NCBI GenBank assembly: GCA_913043225.1
Contig: CAJWLU010000017.1
Location: forward strand, 1-64,000
DNA length: 64,000 nucleotides
Direction of reading: 5' to 3'
From: an uncultured Acidobacteriota bacterium
GTDB lineage: Bacteria > Acidobacteriota > Vicinamibacteria > Vicinamibacterales > UBA8438
Shown here: positions 22,886 to 55,451 of the stretch, piece by piece
Numbering within the stretch: the stretch's first letter is position 1
Layout of the letters: the number at the start of each line of letters is the position of its first letter
Notes under the pieces: model-generated
Database searches by the model: none
The model's input: the letters and a program-made list of their open reading frames with translations, nothing else
What the model was told of the DNA's origin: nothing
Position numbers and translations under genes: made by a program

Positions 22886-25362
22886 GGGCGCCTCTGGGCG
22901 GCCGCGTCGGCTAACTGCGTGGCCTGGGTTTCGACGGCGTCTCGCAAGGTACTGACGACCTCATGCAGTAGTTCGGGAAGCTGGTCGACCGGACCGTCGA
23001 CCTTGACCGTCTCGAGGAATGCGCCGCTGGCCACGTCGAGCAGGCGTGCGGTCAGTCGCAGCTGACCGGCCACCTGCTGGAAGCCGCCGCCGACCAACCA
23101 AAGAGCCTGACGGGAGGCGGCTGCGGGCAGCGCTTTCGCGTCGTCGGTCTGGTCGTCGAGCGGCACCATCACCACCGCCGTGAGCTCGATGAGCCCACCA
23201 GCTACGGCCGCGGTGACTGCTTGTTGAATCCTGGCGTCGCCCGGATTCCTGGAGAGGTTGGCGAACTGCGCTACTGCGACGCGCGGGCGGCGATCCCTGG
23301 CCACGCGCTCAGTCGGTGGGTCCGCCGCCGCGGATGGGTCGCCCAAGTTGAGCTGGGTCCGGAGTCGAGCCACCAGGCTGTCGGTGAGCGACTCGATGTC
23401 ATCCGCTGAGCCATCCAGCTTGATCGAGTCCTGGAGCGTGCCGTCGGAGACGGCCAGTAACCGGCCAGTCACGCGCAGCTGATTGCCGATCCGTTGGAAA
23501 CCGCCACCAATCAGCCATCTGGCGTTGCGCCCGGCCGCAGCGTCGAGTGCCGTTGCCTCGCTGTTGGCCGCCAGTGAGACGATGTCAAGGCCGACCGTGT
23601 CGAAGGCCGTGCGCAGCACGCCGTCGATCGCATCCGTGATGGCGTCGTCGGCCGGATTTCGGGAGAGGTTGGCGAATGGCAGCACCGCGACGCGAGGTCG
23701 ACTGGTACGAGGTGTCGACGAGACATCCGGCGCGGGCGCACCAGCCGGAGCTTGGGCCCGGGACGGTGGTTCCGCCGCGGGCGCCGGTGGCTCAGGTGCC
23801 GCGGGTACGGCTGGAGGTGAGGGTGTCTCGGTAGGTGGTGTCCTCCGCTCACCGGTCGGCCCTCGCCGGCCAGCCGGCCGTCCGGCACGTTCTAGCCGTC
23901 TTGGCCCGCGCCGAGCTGGCGGCGCTTCCGAGACCTCCGTGGCTGGTGGGCTTGCCGCTTCAGCGTCACCCTCGGTGTTCTGTAGCGCCGAGATCTTGTT
24001 GCGAATCGCTGCGATCTGCTCCTCGCGGCTCATCGACGGGTCTAGTACCAGACGGTCCGGGGGAGGTTGGCGAGCGGCGGCTAGAGCCGGCCGCTCCGCC
24101 TGGGGTTCGGGTGCCGATGGTGTTGCAGCGGCGGCCGGGGGTGTGGGTTGAGTGGCGGGAGTTCCCTCGGCGGTCGCCATCGCGTCCCCGTTGTCTCCGA
24201 GCACGCGGACGGCCATACCGTCGGTGACCGTGTCGAGTGCCGAGATGCACACGACTTCGCCCTCGGCGAGACCGCTGCTAATTAGCACACTGTCGGTGGT
24301 TGAGCGCAGCACTTCGACGTCACGGAAACGGAGGCGGCCTCCGTCTTCGACCACCAGCACCTGGTTCCGGCCTCTCAGCGCCGCCCACGGCAGTTCGACC
24401 ACGTTATCGGCTCGGCGTCCAGTGATTTCCGCCTCCACAAACATTCCTGCCGCCAGCGGTGGCCGTGATGGATCGTCGCTGGCACCATACGGGTCGGCGA
24501 CTTCCGCGACCACATGGACCATGCGGCTGACTGGATCGATCTCGCTCTCGGTCCGGACGATCCGACCCTGCCAGGTGTGGCGGCGGCCGGCGAAGTCGGT
24601 CACCAGCGTGACCCGGGGGCCGGTCTGCTGCTGGTTGCCCCGATAGGACATCGGCACGTCGACATAGGCCAGCTCCTCATCCGGCAGCGGGAGCCGGATC
24701 TCAGCGGAGTCCACGGCATAGATGCGTCCGACGGTGTTGCCTTTGTTGACGAACTGTCCGACGTCGACATCCTTGCTCTGCACGCGTCCGGCGTATGGTG
24801 CCTTGACTTCCGACCGCTCGAGGTCGCGTTCGGCACGTTCGAGCGCTGCCTCCGCCGCGGCAACGGCGGCGCGCGCGTCCTCGACCTGGGGCTGCCGAAG
24901 GGTCAGGGCGGTGGCGTTGCCGCGTCCGATCTCCTCCCATTCGCGGCGGGCGACCTCTGCCTCCGCTTCCTCCTGGGCGAGACGCAGCTTCGCTTGTGCG
25001 AGCTGCGACCGTCCGCTGATGACCGCCTGCTGATAGTCGTAGGGATCGATCTTGAGCAGCACGTCACCTTCTTCGAAGAAGCCGCCGACGGCGAACGATG
25101 GTGAGACCTCGATGACGCTGCCCGAGATCTCGGGAACCAGCTGACTGCTAGTCCGCGGCTGGACGGTGCCCTGGCTGCTGACGGTCAGGTCGACAGACGA
25201 CATCTCGACGCGCTGTACTCGCACGCTGGGCGGCTCGATCACGGGAGTGCGGGTTTCGACCGGTGGTCGGTTGATGTACATCACGTAGGCGGCGCCAACG
25301 GCGCCCGCCAGGACGACCAGCGGAAGAAGGACCTTCAGGGGACGAATGAAGACTTGTGACAT
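22882..25362 (-). CDS. RND periplasmic adaptor (MFP) with a long C-terminal extension carrying two TolB-N-like domains
   Basis: HlyD-type N-terminal half (VPEISG, VKAPYAG, IDPVSR, GMFVEAEI), then a Pro/Ala linker and two VAV..FANLSRNP repeats. Confidence 0.88.
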   Translation of the reverse strand: MSQVFIRPLKVLLPLVVLAGAVGAAYVMYINRPPVETRTPVIEPPSVRVQRVEMSSVDLTVSSQGTVQPRTSSQLVPEISGSVIEVSPSFAVGGFFEEGDVLLKIDPYDYQQAVISGRSQLAQAKLRLAQEEAEAEVARREWEEIGRGNATALTLRQPQVEDARAAVAAAEAALERAERDLERSEVKAPYAGRVQSKDVDVGQFVNKGNTVGRIYAVDSAEIRLPLPDEELAYVDVPMSYRGNQQQTGPRVTLVTDFAGRRHTWQGRIVRTESEIDPVSRMVHVVAEVADPYGASDDPSRPPLAAGMFVEAEITGRRADNVVELPWAALRGRNQVLVVEDGGRLRFRDVEVLRSTTDSVLISSGLAEGEVVCISALDTVTDGMAVRVLGDNGDAMATAEGTPATQPTPPAAAATPSAPEPQAERPALAAARQPPPDRLVLDPSMSREEQIAAIRNKISALQNTEGDAEAASPPATEVSEAPPARRGPRRLERAGRPAGRRGPTGERRTPPTETPSPPAVPAAPEPPAPAAEPPSRAQAPAGAPAPDVSSTPRTSRPRVAVLPFANLSRNPADDAITDAIDGVLRTAFDTVGLDIVSLAANSEATALDAAAGRNARWLIGGGFQRIGNQLRVTGRLLAVSDGTLQDSIKLDGSADDIESLTDSLVARLRTQLNLGDPSAAADPPTERVARDRRPRVAVAQFANLSRNPGDARIQQAVTAAVAGGLIELTAVVMVPLDDQTDDAKALPAAASRQALWLVGGGFQQVAGQLRLTARLLDVASGAFLETVKVDGPVDQLPELLHEVVSTLRDAVETQATQLADAAAQRRP

Positions 25363-46312: not shown

Positions 46313-47062
46313 CTAGCCGCTTCGTCGCGCCTTGAACCGTAACCGCACGTAGTCCACGACCCAGACGCCGTTCGTGTTCTTCAGCCCTGGTTCGAGCTGC
46401 GCCTTGACCTCCTCGACGACGGCCGCACGTTCGTCCTCCGGGACGGCGTCGAGGAACCGCTGGGCAAAGATCCACAGCCAATGCGAGAGGTCACCTGGCA
46501 GCGGCGTCGGTCGTGGGAACCGCTGAATAGATTCGACAGAGAACCCGCCAACCTCGAGTCGCCGCTGATATTCCGCCTCGGTCGGAAAGTACCACGGGTC
46601 TGCAGCCGCCGGGTTCACGCCTCGGGCAGTCAGGGCGGTGCTGAGCGCTTCACGGATCGACAGGACACAGCCGGCGCCCCCCATCTCGGCCACGAATCGG
46701 CCACCGGGTCGCAGGGCTCGCCGGACCCCGGCGATGACCCTGTCCGCCTCCGAGACCCAGTGCAACGCGGCATTGCTGAAGACGGCGTCGAACTCACCGT
46801 CGAAGGTGAGCTCGCGGAAGTCGGTGATCCGGGCATCGAGACCGCGCTCGAGCGCCGCCCAGACTTGTTCGGGGCTGCTGTCCACCGCGACGACGAGACA
46901 GCCGGCCCGGCGCAGTCGCTCGGTGAGCGACCCGTCGCCGCAGCCGAGGTCGAGCATGCGCTCACCGGCAAGTGGTTCCAGCAGATCCACGACCGGCGCA
47001 CCCAGGTCAGAGACGAAGCGCGCGTGCTGGTCGTAGGCGTCCGGATCCCACCGCTGGGTCAT
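46313..47062 (-). CDS. Class I SAM-dependent methyltransferase (Tam-like)
   Basis: LDLGCGDG, FDAVFSNAALHW and DYVRLR; start ATG 47062 overlaps the hisA stop. Confidence 0.9.
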   Translation of the reverse strand: MTQRWDPDAYDQHARFVSDLGAPVVDLLEPLAGERMLDLGCGDGSLTERLRRAGCLVVAVDSSPEQVWAALERGLDARITDFRELTFDGEFDAVFSNAALHWVSEADRVIAGVRRALRPGGRFVAEMGGAGCVLSIREALSTALTARGVNPAAADPWYFPTEAEYQRRLEVGGFSVESIQRFPRPTPLPGDLSHWLWIFAQRFLDAVPEDERAAVVEEVKAQLEPGLKNTNGVWVVDYVRLRFKARRSG

Positions 47063-47760
47063 GAGTCGGATCGCGGCGAGAGCTCGTCGAGTGCGAGCGT
47101 GCCGGTGTAGATGGCCATGCCAACGACCGCGTCGATGCCGGCCCGGTCCAGCGACTCGATCTCTTCCCTGGTGGTGATACCGCCGGCCGCCGTGAGGGGA
47201 CGCTCGGTCGCCGCGGCGACCTCCTCGATGGCCGACATGTCGGTGCCCTGCATCAGCCCCTCCCGGTCGACGTGGGTATAGAGAAACTCGCCGCAGTACG
47301 GTTCGAGCTGGCGCACCGCTTCGACGGGGGTGACCTCGACCGGTTCCCGCCACCCTCGGATCACCACCTTTCCCGCCTTGCTGTCCACTGCGGCAATGAC
47401 CCGTTCGGGCCCCACGGCCTCGGCGAGCAACTGGGCGAAATCGAGGTTCGGGTGGCCGTCCCGGAACAGTGAAGAGCTCACGATGATGGCCCGGGCTCCG
47501 TAGTCGACGACCTCGCGGGCGCGCTCTATCGACCGGATCCCTCCCCCGACGCGGCACGGCAGTAGCGGCGCGACGTGACGCACCAGCTCGTCGTTGGTCC
47601 CGGAGCCGATCGCTGCGTCCAGATCGATCAGCTGGACCTTCGGAAACCTAGAGAACCTGTCGATCCATTCCTCCAGGTCGTCGCTGGCCAAAGCCAGCCG
47701 CTCACCCTGGACCAGCTGGACCACCTGGCCACCCTTGAGGTCGATTGAGGGAATAAGCAT
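47059..47760 (-). CDS. hisA: ProFAR isomerase HisA
   Basis: IPSIDL..G.VVQL.QG, IDLDAA, VGGGIR, T.VDREG.M.G and AAGG. Start at 47760. Confidence 0.88.
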   Translation of the reverse strand: MLIPSIDLKGGQVVQLVQGERLALASDDLEEWIDRFSRFPKVQLIDLDAAIGSGTNDELVRHVAPLLPCRVGGGIRSIERAREVVDYGARAIIVSSSLFRDGHPNLDFAQLLAEAVGPERVIAAVDSKAGKVVIRGWREPVEVTPVEAVRQLEPYCGEFLYTHVDREGLMQGTDMSAIEEVAAATERPLTAAGGITTREEIESLDRAGIDAVVGMAIYTGTLALDELSPRSDS

Positions 47761-47764
47761 CGTG

Positions 47765-48529
47765 CTAGCCAGTCTCCAGCCGCACCGGGATCTGGTGCTG
47801 GTACAGGTGGGCCTTGAGGTCCTCGACGGCGTGTTCGGCGTAGTGGAAAATCGATGCCGCCAGGGCCGCGTCCGCTCGACCGGCCCGGAAGACGTCGACG
47901 AAGTGATCGAAGGTCCCGGCGCCGCCCGACGCAATGACCGGGATCGGCACCGCCTCGGAGACGGCCGCCGTCAGTTCACAGTCGAAGCCGGACTTCGTGC
48001 CGTCGCGGTCGATCGAGGTGAGCAGGATCTCACCGGCTCCCCGGTCCGCCGCCTCTCGCGCCCATTCGACCGCGTCCCGTTCGGTGCCCTCTTGACCGCT
48101 ACGGACGTAGATCTTGAACCGGTCGTCCTCGCGCTTCGCGTCGATGGCCACGATCACGGCTTGGCTGCCGTATCGCCGCGCCAGCGTGGTGATCAGCTCG
48201 GGCTGTCTGAGCGCGGCTGTATTGATTCCCACCTTGTCGGCGCCCGCCTCGATGGCGGCCTCTGCGTGCTCCTCGCCCCGGATGCCGCCGCCGACACAGA
48301 GTGGGAGGAAAATCTCTCCCGCCACGGCTCGGATGGTTTCGGCCAGTGCCTTCCGACCCTCGATCGTCGCGGTGACGTCGAGGATCACCACCTCGTCGAT
48401 TCCTTCCCGGTTGTATCGCCTGGCAAGGGTCGCGGGGTCACCAGCTCGACGGAGGTCTTCGAAGTTGATGCCTTTGACGACCGAGCCGTCCCGAACGTCC
48501 AGGCAGGCGATGATCCGCTTGGATAGCAT
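47765..48529 (-). CDS. hisF: Imidazole glycerol phosphate synthase cyclase subunit
   Basis: [29 protein letters not shown] and ALAASIFH. Start at 48529. Confidence 0.96.
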
Positions 48530-48543
48530 GAGGTGGTATTTCT

Positions 48544-49197
48544 CTAGCCTTCCACCCGACGGAGGAAGTTCCCCAGGATCCGGAGTCCGACGTCGGACGA
48601 CTTTTCCGGGTGGAACTGGACCCCGCCGACCTGTCCACGTTCGACCGCGGCGGCGAAGTCGACGCCGTAACGCGTGGAGCCAACGCAGTCGTCGGTCACC
48701 GGCGCGGCAAACGAGTGGGTGAAGTACACCTGATCGCCTTCGTTTACCCCGTCGAGGAGCCAGGATGCCCGCGTCAGGCGGAGGGAGTTCCATCCGACGT
48801 GGGGCACCTTGAGGCGACCCCGTCCGTCGACCCCGCTGCCCTCGGCGACGTCCGGGTCGTCGGCCGCGACCGCTTCAGGTAGCTGCTGGCAGAGGCCCGC
48901 CATCACCGCGAGCCCCTCGTGGTCTGGCGCCTCGGCGCTGCCGTCGAACAACCACTGCATGCCGACGCAGATCCCGAGTAGCGGGTGTTCCTGAGACACC
49001 TGCTCGAGGATTGCCGTTCGCCATTCGGGTCCGAGCGCGCCCGTCACCTCGAAGTTACCGACTCCGGGCACGATGATGCCTCGAGCCCCGGTCAGTTCGC
49101 CGGGTGAGGTCGGGGTGCTGAAGCGAACGCCCAGATGGCCCAACGCCTTGCGCACCGACGTCAGATTCCCCGCGCCGTAGTCGATCAGAGCGATCAT
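48544..49197 (-). CDS. hisH: Imidazole glycerol phosphate synthase glutaminase subunit
   Basis: IDYGAGN, PGVG, GICVGMQ, VPHVGWN and QFHPEKS. Start at 49197. Confidence 0.96.
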   Translation of the reverse strand: MIALIDYGAGNLTSVRKALGHLGVRFSTPTSPGELTGARGIIVPGVGNFEVTGALGPEWRTAILEQVSQEHPLLGICVGMQWLFDGSAEAPDHEGLAVMAGLCQQLPEAVAADDPDVAEGSGVDGRGRLKVPHVGWNSLRLTRASWLLDGVNEGDQVYFTHSFAAPVTDDCVGSTRYGVDFAAAVERGQVGGVQFHPEKSSDVGLRILGNFLRRVEG

Positions 49198-49210
49198 CGG
49201 GGGCCTACTC

Positions 49211-49798
49211 TCAGAGCAGTCCCTTCGTGCTCGGAAGCTGTTTCGCCATGCGTGGGTCCTTGTCACAGGCTACCCGCAACGCGCGCCCGAACGCCTTGAA
49301 CAGCGCCTCCACCTGGTGGTGGCTCGAACGCCCGTAGAGCACCTTAACGTGGACGTTGGCCAGCGCGCCCTGAGCGAAGCCCTCGAAGAAGTCCTGAATC
49401 AGCTCGGACTGCAGGTCTCCGACCCGGTGGATCCGCAACCGAAGATCGACCACTGCGTGTGGCCGGCCGCTGAGATCGATGGCGGCGACACCGAGCGTCT
49501 CGTCCATCGGCATCACGAAGTAGCCGGCGCGGTTGATGCCGCGGCGAGATCCAATTGCCTTCGAAACCGCTTCTCCCAGCGCGATGCCGACGTCCTCGAC
49601 GGTGTGGTGCTGGTCGACGTCCAGATCGCCATCCGCCTCGATCCGGAGGTCAAAGGCTCCGTGCTTGGCCATCAGCTCGAGCATGTGGTCAAAGAACCGG
49701 ATGCCGGTCCGGATCTGATAGGTGCCCCGTCCCTCGATACCAAGCCGGATCGAGATCTGGGTCTCAGCCGTGTGACGTTCGATACGGGCACGTCGCAT
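49211..49798 (-). CDS. hisB: Imidazoleglycerol-phosphate dehydratase (monofunctional)
   Basis: [29 protein letters not shown] and PSTKG.L. Confidence 0.96.
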
Positions 49799-49802
49799 GG
49801 CG

Positions 49803-51059
49803 TCAGGCCTTGTCCTTCCTGTTGCGAGACAGCCGCACCCGCACGGACTCGGCGTGAGCGTGTAGTCCCTCGGCTTCCGCCAGCGGCAAGATGGTGGGGG
49901 CGAGTCCAGCCAACCCCGTCTGTGTCAGGCGCTGCACGCTGTGGACATGCACGAAGTCCGATGCGCTCAGACCCCCGCGCGAACGGGCGGCGCCCCCGGT
50001 TGGCAGCACGTGGTTCGAGCCGGTGGCGTAGTCGCCGGCCGCCTGTGCACCATAGTGGCCGACAAAGACAGTGCCGGCCTTGGTGGTCCGTCGTGCCACC
50101 GACTCACGGTCGCAGACGAGGTGCTCGGGCGCGATCTCGTTAGCTAGCTCCACGGCGGCGTCGATCGACGGCGTGACCACGATGACGCCGTTGGCCCTGA
50201 TCGAGGCCCGCGCCGGTCCGTCGGCGGGGAGCCGCTCCGCCACCGCCGTGGCGATCCGGTTGGCGAGGCCCTCATCCGGAGTGACGACAATGGCCCGCGC
50301 GTCCGGGTCGTGTTCGGCCTGGGCCACGAGATCGGCGGCGATCCAGGTCGGGTTGCCGCCGGTGGCGATGATCACGATCTCGGTGGGCCCGGCATAGAAA
50401 TCGATAGGGCAGGTCGCCGCGACTTGTGCCTTGGCCGCCGCCACGTACGCATTGCCCGGACCGACGATCTTGTCCACCTTCGGGATGGTTGCCGTGCCAT
50501 ACGCCAGCGCGGCAACTGCGTGTGCGCCGCCGAGACGGTAGAGCCTAGTGGCGCCGGCAATGGCGGCAGCGGCGAGCACGGTCGCATCGGGGTGGGGGCA
50601 GGTGACGATCACCTCTCGCACACCGGCCACCCGGGCCGGGACTGCGGTCATCAGGAGCGATGACGGCAGCGGGTATCGCCCGGCCGGGACGTAGCAGCCC
50701 ACGCGGTCGAGGGGGGTCACCACCTGTTCGATGTTGACGCCGGGGCGGACTTCGGTGCGCCACCCCCGCGGGATCTGCCGTCGCGCCACTCGCCTGATGT
50801 TCGCTGCCGCGCTGCGAAGCGCTCGCTTCAGGTCCGGATCGAGACCGCGGAGTCCCTCCTCGATCTCCTCCTGGGTCACTTCCACTGGACCGGAGAGCTG
50901 GTCGAACTTGCGCGCGTAGCGCAGGAGCGCCGCGTCGCCGGATTGGCGCACCGCCGCCACGATCGTGGCCACCCGGCGGGTTATGGTCGGGTCCGTGTCC
51001 AGCTGCCGGTCCACCAACCGCGCCACGGCGCGTCGTCGAGACGAGGGGAGGATGCGCAT
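49803..51059 (-). CDS. hisD: Histidinol dehydrogenase
   Basis: [24 protein letters not shown] and [11 protein letters not shown]. Confidence 0.96.
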
Positions 51060-51061
51060 GG

Positions 51062-51952
51062 TCAGAGCACGATCTTGTTCAGCGGGTATTCCACGATTCC
51101 CTGGGCTCGGGCCGCTTTGAGTTTCGGAATCAGTTCACGCACGGACGATTCCTCGATGATCGTCGTGACCGAGACCCACTGGTCGTCGCTGAGCGCCGCT
51201 ATGGTGGGGCGTTGCAGCGCCGGCAGCAGGCCGACCACCGCTTCGAGGTCGTTCCGCGGGACATTGAGCATAAGGCCGACCCGTCCCTGGGCCTCGATAG
51301 CGGCGCGCAGGAGCAGGGCGATGTTCTCGAGCTTGGTCCGTGTCCACTCGTCCTCGAGGGCCGCCTGATTGGCGATGAGCTGAGGATTCGACTCGATGAC
51401 CGTGTCGATGATCCGTAGTCTGTTGGCTCGTAGCGTCGAGCCAGTCTCGGTGGCTTCCACGATGCCGTCGGCCAGCCGTGGAGGCTTAACTTCGGTGGCG
51501 CCCCAGGAGAACTCGACCTTCACGGGAATGTCGAGCCGTGTGAAGTACGCCTGTGTTACCTGTACCAATTCAGTGGCGATCGTCCCGCCGGCGAAGTCCT
51601 TCGGGCTCTTGAACTTCGAATCCTCTGGGGCGGCCAGCACCCAGCGGACCTTGCGGAAGCTCTGTTTCGAGTAGACCAGGTCAGCGATATCCACGACGGT
51701 GTCGCCGGTGCTGGCGTGATGTTCTGCGATCCAGTCTTGCCCGGTGAGTCCGGCGTCGAGCGCGTTGTCTGCGACGTAGCGCGCCATTTCCTGGGCCCGG
51801 ATTAGCGTGCACTCGATCTCGGGGTCGTCGATGGTCGGAAAGTATGACCGCGAGCTCGTGTAGATGTTGAATCCGGCCTGTGCGAACAGCTGAATGGTCG
51901 ACTCCTGCAGGGAGCCTTTGGGGATACCGAGTCGTAGGATCTTGTCAGCCAT
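51062..51952 (-). CDS. hisG: ATP phosphoribosyltransferase (long form)
   Basis: [22 protein letters not shown] and [10 protein letters not shown]-terminal regulatory domain. Confidence 0.95.
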
Positions 51953-51958
51953 CGTCGT

Positions 51959-52279
51959 TTAGTCCTCAGTGCCAAGTTCACGGTAGAAACAGGTGCGTTC
52001 GCCCGTGTGACAGACGTTGCCCTCGCCGTTTCGGGTGACCTTCACGAGCAGCGTGTCGTCGTCACAGTCCACCAGCAGCTGCTGTACGGCAAGGGTGTTG
52101 CCGGAGGTCTCACCCTTCATCCAGAGCTTGTTCCGGGTCCGGCTGAAGAAGGTGGCGAAGCCCGTCTCCCGGGTACGGTCGAGAGCCTCTTGGTTCATGA
52201 AGCCGACCATCAGTACTTCCTCGCTGGTGGCGTCCTGGATCACCGCCGGTATCAGGCCGTCTAGTTTCGAAAAGTCCAT
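51959..52279 (-). CDS. hisI: Phosphoribosyl-AMP cyclohydrolase
   Basis: FSRTR..LW.KGETSG, DCDDD and CHTG..TCF. Confidence 0.96.
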   Translation of the reverse strand: MDFSKLDGLIPAVIQDATSEEVLMVGFMNQEALDRTRETGFATFFSRTRNKLWMKGETSGNTLAVQQLLVDCDDDTLLVKVTRNGEGNVCHTGERTCFYRELGTED

Positions 52280-52318
52280 CGTCTGTCCTCAGCTGTCGCC
52301 CCGCTGGCCGCGTTCACC

Positions 52319-52351
52319 AAAAAAAAGCCCCGCCGAACAGGTCGGCGGGGC
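52319..52351 (-). terminator. his attenuator intrinsic terminator
   Basis: Minus strand: GCCCCGCCGA-CCTGT-TCGGCGGGGC (10-bp stem) followed by eight T. Confidence 0.92.
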
Positions 52352-52388
52352 GGGGACTGTGTCGTGTGTCTGTTCGAGACGTGCTACA

Positions 52389-52463
52389 TCACACGCAGAG
52401 CCACCGGCCCGCCGATAGGGCGGGATGATGCACGTGATGATGGCGGCCAAGCTTGCACGTCAT
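52389..52463 (-). CDS. hisL: Histidine operon leader peptide MTCKLGRHHHVHHPALSAGRWLCV
   Basis: 24-aa ORF with five His in six codons, lying between the promoter and the terminator upstream of hisI. Confidence 0.88.
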   Translation of the reverse strand: MTCKLGRHHHVHHPALSAGRWLCV

Positions 52464-52472
52464 GAGCTTCGT

Positions 52473-52501
52473 ACCGTACTTCAGGCGCGTACCCCTGTCA
52501 A
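52473..52501 (-). promoter_or_regulatory. Sigma-70 promoter of the his operon
   Basis: TTGACA (52501-52496), 17-nt spacer, TACGGT (52478-52473). Confidence 0.8.
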
Positions 52502-52742
52502 ATCGGGTGCGCGAAGTCTCACACCGGCTCTTGCCAGCGCAGGGCGCCGCCGACGGTCCTCATCTCGCGCGGGCGTGTCCGACGGTCGGAGTTCCCAAGG
52601 CCAGCGGACGGTTGCTCCGAGTCACTGGACGCCACAACCCCGTCCACCGACGGGATACAGGATAGGGGTTGGTTGTTACGACGCCTCAACGAGACGGTGT
52701 CGGGTCGGTCAATTCGACGTGTCGTCGGTGTGACGAGGGGTG

Positions 52743-55451
52743 TCAGAACCTTAGGCGAACCCCGGCGAAGCCGCTCCGAGGCGCGGCAGGACCGACGAAT
52801 CTCGGGTCCTCGGCGTTGGGGACCTCTTCGAGCTCGACCTCGAGTTCGGCGAGGGCGCCGAAGGTCTCGTACTCGGCGTCGAACAGGTTGTCGACGCGGA
52901 CAAACAGCTCGACTTCTGGAGTCAGACGGTAGGCAGAGCGCAGGTTAATCGCGCCGTAGCCATCGAGTGGCAACTGGTCGTTGCCCTCGTCGCCCAGGAA
53001 GATACGGTTCGACGCTGCGACGGCCTCCACGGCGATGTCGAACGCCCGGGTCAGCGGGACGCCGATTCCGGCTTTCACGCTATGTCTGGGAATGCCGACC
53101 AGGCGGTCGCCAGGCTGGACGGCGAGCGCACCGTTTCCGGTCGTGGCGTCGTTCACCTCGTCGTTGCCCGGGAGCTCGAGCGGCGATTCGAAGGTCGCCT
53201 CGACGAGGCCGTACCCGAGATACCAGCCCACGCGGTTGATCTGTCCCCGCAGGTCCAGGTCGAGGCCGACGCGCTGGGTGTCGCCCGCGTTCTGGAAGTA
53301 GCCCGTACCGATCAGCTCGGGCGAGGCGATGAACAGGATGTCGTCATCGATCCGGGTGCGGTAGAACGACGCCGACCAGTCGAGGTTGCCGGGCGCCCCT
53401 GTCCACCGCCCTCGAACCCCACCTTCAATCGATCGGGCGACGGCTTGTTCGAGCGGCGGATCTGAGATGAACGCGTTCGGGACCCGGCATGGTTCCTCGG
53501 GGTCGGCGCAGCTCAGTTCTGCAGCGGTCGGGGCCCGGTTCGACTCGCTGTAGCGTCCGAACAGGCTCGCCGCGTCCGAGAGCTGGTAGACGAGACCGGC
53601 GGCCGGGTTGAACCGCGAGAAGCTATGGTCGCCGTTGAGCGATACGCCGAGCCGGTCGATGATCTCGATGCGGGCGTGATTGAATCGACCCGAGAGCGTC
53701 AGATGGGTACGAGGGGTCAGCGACATCGTGTCACTGACATAGAGACCGTAATACTGGTTCTCCGAATCGATCGACGTGTTGAACAGGTCGTCCGGCGCCT
53801 GGCCGAAGAGTCCGGCCCGCAACCCTGAGCCGGACACCGTCCGCTCATCAGTGAGGGTGCCGACTTCGCTGTTCGAGCTGAAGTCGATGTCCGCCAGGTC
53901 GGCTGACGCGCCGAGCACCAGGATGTGGTCGCTGCCACCAACCGTGCCGCGTCCGGTGGCTTGCACGGTCGCGCCGTAGCCCTTAGCTCGGGTCGACGTG
54001 CGGTTGAACGCACCGTCTCCCGCCGCGTCGTCGGTGGTGATGAAGCGGCCGGTGTTGTTGGCATCTACCAGAGGTGTGCCGGCTGTTTCGTCGTCCCCGT
54101 CCTCGTCGCCATCCGCATCCTCATCGTCAGTGCGATCCGACCAGAGCCTGAGCTCGTCATCATCGTCGTCGGCGCCCTGGCATAGCGTGTTCGCGGGAGC
54201 TCCCGCGGGGAGTAGGTCGTCGTCACACACCGAGAACTCCGCCTCGTCGCCGTTCAGTGTTTGCCGGTCCAGGTCGCGGTAGTAGGCGGTGGCCTGCACC
54301 GACCAGGCATCGGTGGCCGCCAGGTCGAAACGGCCCTGCAGGAACGCCAGCTGGTTCTCCGTGGTGTCGGGATAGGTGAATACCGCGCTGCGGTCTACCT
54401 CGAGGAGCTCGATCGGCGCCGCGCCGTTGCCGTTCATCCGGGTGTCGGCGTAGGTGAAGGTGACGCCCGCGTCCACGCGGTCCTTGCGGTAGCCCACGTC
54501 GGCGACCGCCTGAGTCACTTCCGACGGTGACTGGACACGCCAGCCCTCTTCGTCGAACCGAGTGGCTCCGACGTAGAGCGCCCACGGACCGTTGTTCACG
54601 CCGTACTCGGCCGTGCCGACGAGGCGGTCGAACGAGCCGCCGGAGATCTCGGCGGCGAAGCCGGTGAAGTCGAATCCGTTCTTCAGACTGAGTCCCAAGG
54701 CGCCCCCCAGCGCGTTCAGCCCGTAGGTGGGGTCGGCGCCCGCGCTGAGCTGGGTCTGGCTAACGGCGAACTGCGGCATTAGGTCGAACTGGACGGTGTC
54801 GCCAAACGGTTCGTTGATCCGGACACCGTTCTGGTAGACCGCAATCCCCTGCGGGAGGCCGAGGAGCGGAGAGGCCGTGAAGCCCCTGAAGCGGAGCGTG
54901 GGCTGGAAGAGGTTCGTCGTGGCGCCCTCGATCGAGACCGACCCGAGCCGTTCTCCGAGCGCGTCGGCAAACGACGCGGCCCCGCGGCCTCGTAACTCGG
55001 CCGCACCGAGTACCAAGACCGTAGCTGGAATGAGGTCTCGATCGATCTCGGTGCCCAGCAAGGGCGTAAACCCAACCACCTCGACCCGTTCGGTGAGACG
55101 CGCCAGACCCAGTTCGGCATCCAGGTTCACTGCGAAGCCGTTCTGGACCGAGACCCCGAGCTCTCGGATGGCCTGAAACCCTTCCAGGCTGAACCGCACG
55201 TCGTAGGATCCTGGTGGGAGGCTGTCTAACTGGTAGCGGCCGCTCGCATCCGTGGTGGCCATGATCGGTGCGGCCCGAGCCGCTGAGGTCGCCGCAACGG
55301 TCACTCCTGGGAGCGCCTCACCCTGCGAGTCGCGGACCTCTCCTTGCAGCGTGCTGGTTTGGGCCCTTGCGGGAACCGCCATCGCGAGGATCAGACAGAG
55401 GGCCGTGAGTAGTGGAAGGAGCGTCGTCGACCTTGAACGGAGATAAGCCAT
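52743..55451 (-). CDS. TonB-dependent receptor with an N-terminal carboxypeptidase-regulatory-like domain (LutH/LanA-like subfamily)
   Basis: Signal peptide; plug RGFTASPLLGLPQGIAVYQNGVRINEPFGD and GLNALGGA; NRAPT.AEL.CADP..PC; VDNLFD; C-terminal Phe. Confidence 0.9.
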   Translation of the reverse strand: MAYLRSRSTTLLPLLTALCLILAMAVPARAQTSTLQGEVRDSQGEALPGVTVAATSAARAAPIMATTDASGRYQLDSLPPGSYDVRFSLEGFQAIRELGVSVQNGFAVNLDAELGLARLTERVEVVGFTPLLGTEIDRDLIPATVLVLGAAELRGRGAASFADALGERLGSVSIEGATTNLFQPTLRFRGFTASPLLGLPQGIAVYQNGVRINEPFGDTVQFDLMPQFAVSQTQLSAGADPTYGLNALGGALGLSLKNGFDFTGFAAEISGGSFDRLVGTAEYGVNNGPWALYVGATRFDEEGWRVQSPSEVTQAVADVGYRKDRVDAGVTFTYADTRMNGNGAAPIELLEVDRSAVFTYPDTTENQLAFLQGRFDLAATDAWSVQATAYYRDLDRQTLNGDEAEFSVCDDDLLPAGAPANTLCQGADDDDDELRLWSDRTDDEDADGDEDGDDETAGTPLVDANNTGRFITTDDAAGDGAFNRTSTRAKGYGATVQATGRGTVGGSDHILVLGASADLADIDFSSNSEVGTLTDERTVSGSGLRAGLFGQAPDDLFNTSIDSENQYYGLYVSDTMSLTPRTHLTLSGRFNHARIEIIDRLGVSLNGDHSFSRFNPAAGLVYQLSDAASLFGRYSESNRAPTAAELSCADPEEPCRVPNAFISDPPLEQAVARSIEGGVRGRWTGAPGNLDWSASFYRTRIDDDILFIASPELIGTGYFQNAGDTQRVGLDLDLRGQINRVGWYLGYGLVEATFESPLELPGNDEVNDATTGNGALAVQPGDRLVGIPRHSVKAGIGVPLTRAFDIAVEAVAASNRIFLGDEGNDQLPLDGYGAINLRSAYRLTPEVELFVRVDNLFDAEYETFGALAELEVELEEVPNAEDPRFVGPAAPRSGFAGVRLRF

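What the first reader, a model, noticed from the sequence alone, without database searches (positions are those of the whole stretch)
52319..52501. Complete ribosome-mediated histidine attenuator missed by the ORF track
Seen on the minus strand: a TTGACA-17-TACGGT promoter, then the leader MTCKLGRHHHVHHPALSAGRWLCV. Right after the His codons is hairpin 1:2 (CCCGCC-CTATC-GGCGGG). Segment 2 (TCGGCGGG) is also complementary to CCCGCCGA in the left arm of the 10-bp terminator stem plus eight U. Established: this is the logic of enterobacterial his attenuation, where stalling on His codons masks segment 1 and frees the 2:3 antiterminator. Inference: it is functional here. I know of no characterised his attenuator in this probable Acidobacteriota lineage, and the sequence does not resemble E. 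coli hisL beyond the His run.
Basis: partly seen in the sequence, partly recalled or inferred. Interest (0 to 1): 0.85.

Follow-up and report, generated by a model that had tools for sequence, protein, structure and literature searches.

The report
Near-leaderless histidine attenuator of Acidobacteria
A 24-codon mini-gene with five histidine codons and a stop hairpin sits in front of the histidine-synthesis operon of this bacterium and of nearly all relatives checked, and it likely lets transcription continue only when histidine runs short; the switch type is textbook, but this version has an unrelated sequence and probably almost no untranslated leader.

Summary
Confirmed. On the minus strand lie a TTGACA-17-TACGGT promoter-like site, a 24-codon ORF with five His codons (52463-52389) and a 10-bp terminator plus U8, ahead of hisI-G-D-B-H-F-A. 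A His-rich leader precedes hisI in 46 of 50 and 75 of 78 loci from relatives; the named records are mostly Vicinamibacterales. That gives 112 distinct leaders.

Two refinements, both predicted:
(1) The protector is a 21-bp hairpin that includes the His codons, and the antiterminator is a long nested rod.
(2) The start codon lies 6-11 nt after the -10 box in 100 of 109 leaders. Only 6 of 112 have an SD-like word, against 53 of 112 for hisI, so initiation is probably near-leaderless.

In the window the terminator loses at equilibrium mainly with a ribosome on His12-13. In most relatives antitermination must be kinetic: only 27 of 110 flip at equilibrium. Covariation is modest and function is untested. 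There is no match to Rfam His_leader. The mechanism is textbook, His leaders are known in many phyla, and the scan found this element before in another genome (e1-3653770).

The parts
52473..52501 (-). Predicted sigma70-type promoter: -35 TTGACA (52501-52496), 17-nt spacer, -10 TACGGT (52478-52473)
   Evidence: Sequence. A -35/TAnnnT pair was found in 109 of 112 leaders with a loose -35 score. Not called by the consensus scan. No TSS data.
52389..52463 (-). Leader ORF (hisL-like), 24 codons, His at codons 8, 9, 10, 12, 13; starts 9 nt after the -10 box with no SD
   Evidence: Homologues are 20-38 aa with 2-12 His. Translation not shown.
52387..52439 (-). Predicted long protector hairpin: His9-His13 codons plus segment 1 (52439-52419) paired with segment 2 (52413-52408), 52404-52401 and 52397-52387
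   Evidence: MFE of the transcript up to the stop region. The seg3 core pairs with the His tract in 60 of 93 homologues.
52408..52424 (-).
   Evidence: 77.9% of cells paired on 30 sequences; covariation not above shuffles.
52342..52415 (-). Predicted antiterminator rod: 52415-52408 paired with 52349-52342, enclosing inner helices from 52406-52386 to 52373-52351
   Evidence: -38.3 kcal/mol, MFE with the ribosome masked on His codons. 82.5% paired on 30 sequences. Swap test.
52319..52351 (-). Intrinsic terminator: 10-bp stem, 5-nt loop, U8
   Evidence: 8 consensus pairs nearly unbroken in 24 sequences, 2 with double changes.
51959..52279 (-). hisI (phosphoribosyl-AMP cyclohydrolase), first gene of the operon; its SD-like GAGGA at 52290-52286 lies outside the hairpins
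   Evidence: NF000768 above cut-off; sequence.
47059..51952 (-). Rest of the operon: hisG (long form), hisD, hisB, hisH, hisF, hisA-like
   Evidence: NCBIfam: hisG, hisD, hisB, hisH, hisF above cut-off; hisA best match below cut-off.

Best explanation
This is a His-rich leader ORF with a terminator before the his operon that likely works as a ribosome-mediated transcription attenuator sensing charged tRNA-His. Shown: the parts, their order and their conservation. Inferred mechanism: RNA polymerase starts about 0-4 nt before the AUG and a ribosome initiates without an SD. With plenty of histidine the ribosome runs past the His codons and covers segment 2 and the stop-codon region, so the terminator folds and transcription ends near 52320. 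With little histidine the ribosome pauses on the His codons and blocks the long protector. Segment 2 then captures the terminator's 5' arm as a nested rod before the 3' arm is made, and polymerase reads into hisI-G-D-B-H-F-A. With no translation, the protector is predicted to form first and lead to termination.
For: Conservation: 46 of 50 hisI loci (the window's own locus is one of them) and 75 of 78. Window folding: with His12 or His13 in the A site the full-length MFE is the antiterminator (-43.3); past codon 16, or with no ribosome, the terminator forms. The dip in terminator probability stays within codons 10-14 for masks of 8-16 nt. In 45 homologues cut before the 3' arm, mean sequestration of the 5' arm is 0.72-0.78 at the six codons before the last His and about 0.4 from four codons past it. 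In 110 full-length homologues, mean terminator probability is 1.0 at six to nine codons past the last His. Segment 2 pairs with its own arm better than with swapped arms (-16.0 vs -15.35; 1 of 5000 permutations; 101 leaders) and better than shuffled in 90 of 101. The His tract pairs with its own seg3 better than with swapped ones (-10.94 vs -10.18; 1 of 5000; 93 leaders). No HisR/YerC-type repressor was found in the genome, and the window has no Rfam hit, T-box included.
Against: No expression, 3'-end or ribosome data. At equilibrium only 27 of 110 full-length homologues lose the terminator at any His codon, so the switch must be kinetic in most. Before the 3' arm exists, the arm is also sequestered with no ribosome in 33 of 45 (0.98 in the window), so termination of untranslated RNA depends on kinetic trapping. 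Barrier estimates vary with the endpoints chosen: 23.5 vs 4.2 kcal/mol, or 11.5 vs 7.3 (loop). Antiterminator covariation is weak (5 double-change cells, reached by 12 of 500 shuffles), and kinship inflates the swap tests. The inner helix is weak across homologues (mean z -0.46; 33 of 98 below -1). Three genomes of one genus lack the leader (L021, L037, L043).
Confidence: 0.9

Rival explanations
1. The element senses His codons but controls translation of hisI, or Rho-dependent termination, rather than the intrinsic terminator.
For: Leaderless Cys sORFs in mycobacteria act by RBS sequestration (10.1101/834739, abstract). A few homologues lack a canonical U tract (L035, L140, L166).
Against: The hisI SD lies about 30 nt beyond the U tract and outside the predicted helices. 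A terminator-like hairpin was found in 110 of 112 leaders. The stop-to-hisI distance varies from 67 to 278 nt.
Confidence: 0.04
2. The ORF is not translated, and the RNA is switched by a protein, an uncharged tRNA or a metabolite; the CAY repeats are kept only for pairing.
For: No SD. The His tract is predicted to base-pair, so RNA structure could explain part of its conservation.
Against: Start codon, frame and stop are kept while the sequence diverges. CAT and CAC are both used (323 and 383) and almost only in frame. No T-box or riboswitch hit.
Confidence: 0.04
3. A stand-alone small RNA or small His-rich (metal-binding) peptide gene with a constitutive terminator, merely adjacent to the his operon.
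For: It has its own promoter and terminator. The peptide has no NCBIfam hit.
Against: It sits directly before the first his gene wherever it was found. The peptide sequence is not conserved beyond His. The same genome uses matching Cys-rich and Trp-rich leaders before cys and aro-trp operons.
Confidence: 0.02

Closest known systems
Salmonella/E. coli his operon attenuator (hisL; Rfam His_leader RF00514)
   Same: His-codon leader, protector hairpin that includes His codons, antiterminator, intrinsic terminator; untranslated RNA defaults to termination (PMC4046918, passages).
   Different: No match to RF00514. 24 aa with interrupted His runs vs 16 aa with 7 consecutive His. Predicted nested antiterminator rod vs two hairpins B:C and D:E. 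First gene hisI, not hisG. Probably near-leaderless.
Non-enterobacterial His leader-peptide attenuators (B. cereus group, Peptostreptococcaceae, Erysipelotrichales; Bacteroides, Gramella, Myxococcus)
   Same: Lineage-specific His leaders with a terminator; the Firmicutes ones are not detected by RF00514 (PMC9413887 passages; PMC2965389 passages and supplement rows).
   Different: Different phylum. Sequence relationship to these was not tested.
Attenuators translated without an RBS in Actinobacteria (mycobacterial polycysteine leaderless sORFs; C. glutamicum ilvBNC leader)
   Same: Amino-acid-sensing uORF at the 5' end of the mRNA with no SD (10.1101/834739 abstract; the ilvBNC paper seen only as a reference title in PMC4046766).
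   Different: Other amino acids. The mycobacterial case acts on RBS access. Here the spacing peaks at 9-10 nt after the -10 box, implying a 2-4 nt leader rather than none.

Membership tests
Classical leader-peptide transcription attenuator | Short uORF rich in codons for the operon's end product | tested here: met
   5 His in 24 codons; 112 homologous leaders
Classical leader-peptide transcription attenuator | Intrinsic terminator between leader and first gene | tested here: met
Classical leader-peptide transcription attenuator | Mutually exclusive antiterminator available only when the ribosome sits on the control codons | tested here: met
   Met in folding models for the window. In relatives mostly only as a kinetic intermediate. 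Covariation modest.
Classical leader-peptide transcription attenuator | Downstream genes are the cognate biosynthetic operon | tested here: met
   hisI-G-D-B-H-F-A
Classical leader-peptide transcription attenuator | Leader is translated and read-through responds to amino-acid limitation | not testable with these tools
   Only assembled RNA contigs were available
Rfam His_leader RF00514 | Covariance-model match | tested here: not met
   No hit at gathering, none to E 10 in 52200-52800, none in the genome; E. coli control passes
T-box or riboswitch | Rfam match in the leader | tested here: not met
Leaderless sORF attenuator | Start codon at or within a few nt of the TSS, no SD | tested here: inconclusive
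   Spacing 6-11 nt after -10 in 100 of 109; SD-like word in 6 of 112 vs 53 of 112 for hisI. TSS not mapped.

The most novel reading that the evidence does not exclude
An independently evolved, order-wide and possibly phylum-wide His attenuator family. Its sensor ORF is loaded on a 0-4 nt leader without an SD, so the operon would also report the efficiency of leaderless initiation. The non-His codon inside the His run (H-A-H or H-V-H) would be selected to pair with the stop-codon region: the GCACG seg3 variant goes with a CGTGC tract in 6 of 13 leaders, against 11 of 73 for the two common variants. In another family of the phylum the same kind of unit has been doubled into tandem attenuators.
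Probability: 0.3. Interest if true: 0.55.

Novelty: new member of a known kind. Interest (0 to 1): 0.35.

Why it matters
It gives a ready-to-curate RNA family and an unannotated small ORF for an abundant, mostly uncultured order, and it shows how these bacteria probably regulate histidine synthesis. It also offers a natural case for asking how a ribosome that initiates on a 0-4 nt leader without an SD couples to RNA polymerase in time to set an attenuator. The mechanism itself is long known, so this extends the map rather than changing it.

Tried and rejected
RNA runs: 11 RNA runs hold part of the stretch and 7 different ones were laid, all as assembled contigs. Contigs cover the leader in X1, X2, X3, X6 and X7. 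Two from one study span 52306/52307 to 52456/52461, but they are about read length and run 12-13 nt past the U tract. Other contigs cover the DNA upstream of the promoter (X1, X6). They show no start, end, strand or level, so they were not used as evidence.

RNAalifold on the MAFFT alignment found only the terminator. The first covariance structure for hairpin 1:2 showed no covariation above shuffles. The table of seg3 partners searched too narrow a window and was not used.

Two Leu/Ile-rich short ORFs after promoters on contig C3 were checked as possible attenuators and rejected: no terminator, and they overlap palindromes. A loose promoter-anchored scan found no other near-leaderless attenuator in this genome; the Trp leader has a longer 5' UTR. 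Rfam sub-threshold hits (anti-hemB, Spot 42, Trp_leader) all overlap the terminator and were treated as chance.

Literature searches found no description of this element. Subscription papers are not searched. The comparative attenuation surveys of Vitreschak/Gelfand and Lyubetsky and colleagues are recalled, not seen, and may cover Acidobacteria.

Full report
Observation. Downstream lies hisI-G-D-B-H-F-A; hisC is on another contig. Of 24,216 short ATG ORFs in the genome, 5 have at least five His in nine codons, and only this one is followed by a terminator-like tail. Against: the consensus scan did not call the promoter, and the region as a whole folds no better than shuffles.

Conservation. 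hisI was found in 53 of 61 related genomes, and 50 loci were examined. 46 carry a His-rich leader (one has only two His). The four without are three genomes of one genus and one locus where another gene takes the leader's place. A second set of 80 loci, named mostly as Vicinamibacterales or Acidobacteriota, gave 75 of 78, with 2 dropped for too little upstream DNA. Of the three misses, two have a His run one base out of frame with the nearest ATG and one has a repeat array. After removing 9 duplicates, 112 distinct leaders remain: 20-38 aa, mostly 5-8 His. A covariance model hit 12 of 151 phylum-wide genomes, 10 within the order. Upstream of hisG outside the order, a His-rich short ORF plus terminator-like tail was seen in 15 of 50 loci (one off-target hit discounted), and 7 more had His-rich short ORFs that missed that filter. 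His leaders are therefore widespread in the phylum, but homology across classes is not shown.

Near-leaderless start. The first in-frame ATG/GTG lies 6-11 nt after the -10 hexamer in 100 of 109 leaders with a promoter-like site, peaking at 9-10 nt. The script only accepted starts 5 or more nt after the box. An SD-like word precedes 6 of 112 leaders and 53 of 112 hisI genes. In this genome a TAnnnT box lies 6-9 nt before the ATG in 106 of 1644 crudely predicted operon heads, against 3-7 per position at 0-5 nt and 7-15 at 12-32 nt. Short-leader genes thus form a visible minority here. This fits 13.3% leaderless genes reported for three Acidobacteria (PMC3160421, passages). A 0-4 nt 5' UTR is inferred; the TSS is not mapped.

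Structures. The untranslated transcript up to the stop codon is predicted to fold into a 21-bp protector: His9-His13 codons plus segment 1, paired with segment 2 and the UGCGUGUGAUG stop region. The same pairing appears in 60 of 93 homologues, and tracts pair with their own seg3 better than with swapped ones. With the His codons masked, segment 2 pairs with the terminator's 5' arm as a rod of -38.3 kcal/mol that encloses an inner helix. In the full-length window RNA this rod is the MFE only with His12-13 in the A site. Stalls at His8-10 give the rod only before the 3' arm exists, and positions past codon 16 give the terminator. Across 45 homologues (L035 dropped, no canonical terminator), 5'-arm sequestration falls from about 0.75 to about 0.4 once the ribosome is four codons past the last His. 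Limits: only 27 of 110 homologues flip at equilibrium; free RNA also sequesters the arm in 33 of 45 truncated folds; barrier estimates depend on the endpoints; antiterminator covariation is weak, and hairpin 1:2 shows none above shuffles; kin are not independent. Where the arm changes to CCGCTG, segment 2 either changes to CAG or keeps a G-U pair in most cases.

Mechanism. The best reading (0.9) is classical ribosome-mediated transcription attenuation by charged tRNA-His, decided co-transcriptionally. Parts and conservation are shown; translation, stalling, folding order and termination are inferred. Translational control, a non-translated RNA switch and a stand-alone small gene are each unlikely. 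No HisR/YerC-type repressor was found in the 96%-complete genome.

Comparison. It works like Salmonella hisL (PMC4046918, passages) but is not a member of RF00514. Lineage-specific His leaders are known in Firmicutes (PMC9413887, passages). They are also listed for Bacteroides, Gramella and Myxococcus, and the same supplement lists an unannotated terminator 7 nt before the phosphoribosyl-AMP cyclohydrolase gene of Solibacter usitatus (PMC2965389, passages and supplement rows). Attenuators translated without an RBS are known in Actinobacteria (10.1101/834739, abstract and outline; PMC4046766, passages). PMC4833913 (passages and supplement search) counts leader genes in Acidobacteria but names no his leader there. 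Nine searches found no description of this element; closed-access surveys could not be checked. An earlier agent of this scan reported the same element in another genome (e1-3653770). That note is not independent support.

Verdict. A real, conserved and very likely functional attenuator, a new member of a known kind with an uncatalogued sequence family and a probable near-leaderless start. Interest 0.35.

Noticed in passing
L062 (G076), L176 (G130), L178 (G152), L179 (G174), L175 (G119); about 450 nt upstream of hisG: Two complete His-leader plus terminator units in tandem ahead of hisG, in five genomes of two genera of another Acidobacteriota family (f36). In the four genus-g57 genomes leader 1 is 26 aa with an SD-like word and leader 2 is about 43 aa. 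Of the three other f36 loci fetched, two showed one unit and one showed none. The scan has noted tandem His attenuators in other phyla.
   Followed up: partly
G000 C2, minus strand, about 190613-190800: Five consecutive Cys codons in a short frame with a terminator, ahead of a CysH-like gene and what looks like a sulfate-assimilation operon (gene identity judged by eye). Already noted by the scan as e1-8492114.
   Followed up: partly
G000 C19, plus strand, about 22920-23140: Trp/Tyr-containing leader with promoter and terminator ahead of what looks like an aroD/E-trpE-trpG-trpD operon (identity judged by eye). Already noted by the scan as e1-9902229.
   Followed up: partly
L059 (G179:C50:19643-19754): Look-alike unit with a Phe-rich leader and a very similar terminator ahead of a chorismate mutase/prephenate dehydratase-like gene, in a genome outside the order.
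   Followed up: no
L021, L037, L043 (genus g8); L024; L122: Loss of the leader. Genus g8 lacks the His-rich ORF; L037 and L043 keep a hairpin with a weak U tail. In L024 an upstream gene replaces the leader but half the terminator remains. In L122 a tandem repeat array lies before hisI.
   Followed up: no
L142, L169: His run, terminator and (in L169) promoter are intact, but the ATG is one base out of frame with the His codons; possibly assembly indels.
   Followed up: no
G000 his genes: The operon lacks hisE and hisC. hisC is on C11. The only PF01503 matches are two weak partial hits in one 282-aa frame on C38, more like a MazG-type protein (recalled), so a canonical hisE was not found with this query.
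   Followed up: partly
G000 C3 at 197382 (+) and 193193 (-): Palindromes resembling iron-repressor (Fur-type, recalled) boxes directly after two promoters.
   Followed up: no
window 52416: The only variant listed inside the leader in RNA contigs of X6 and X7 falls in the loop of hairpin 1:2 and is synonymous; contig depth is low.
   Followed up: no
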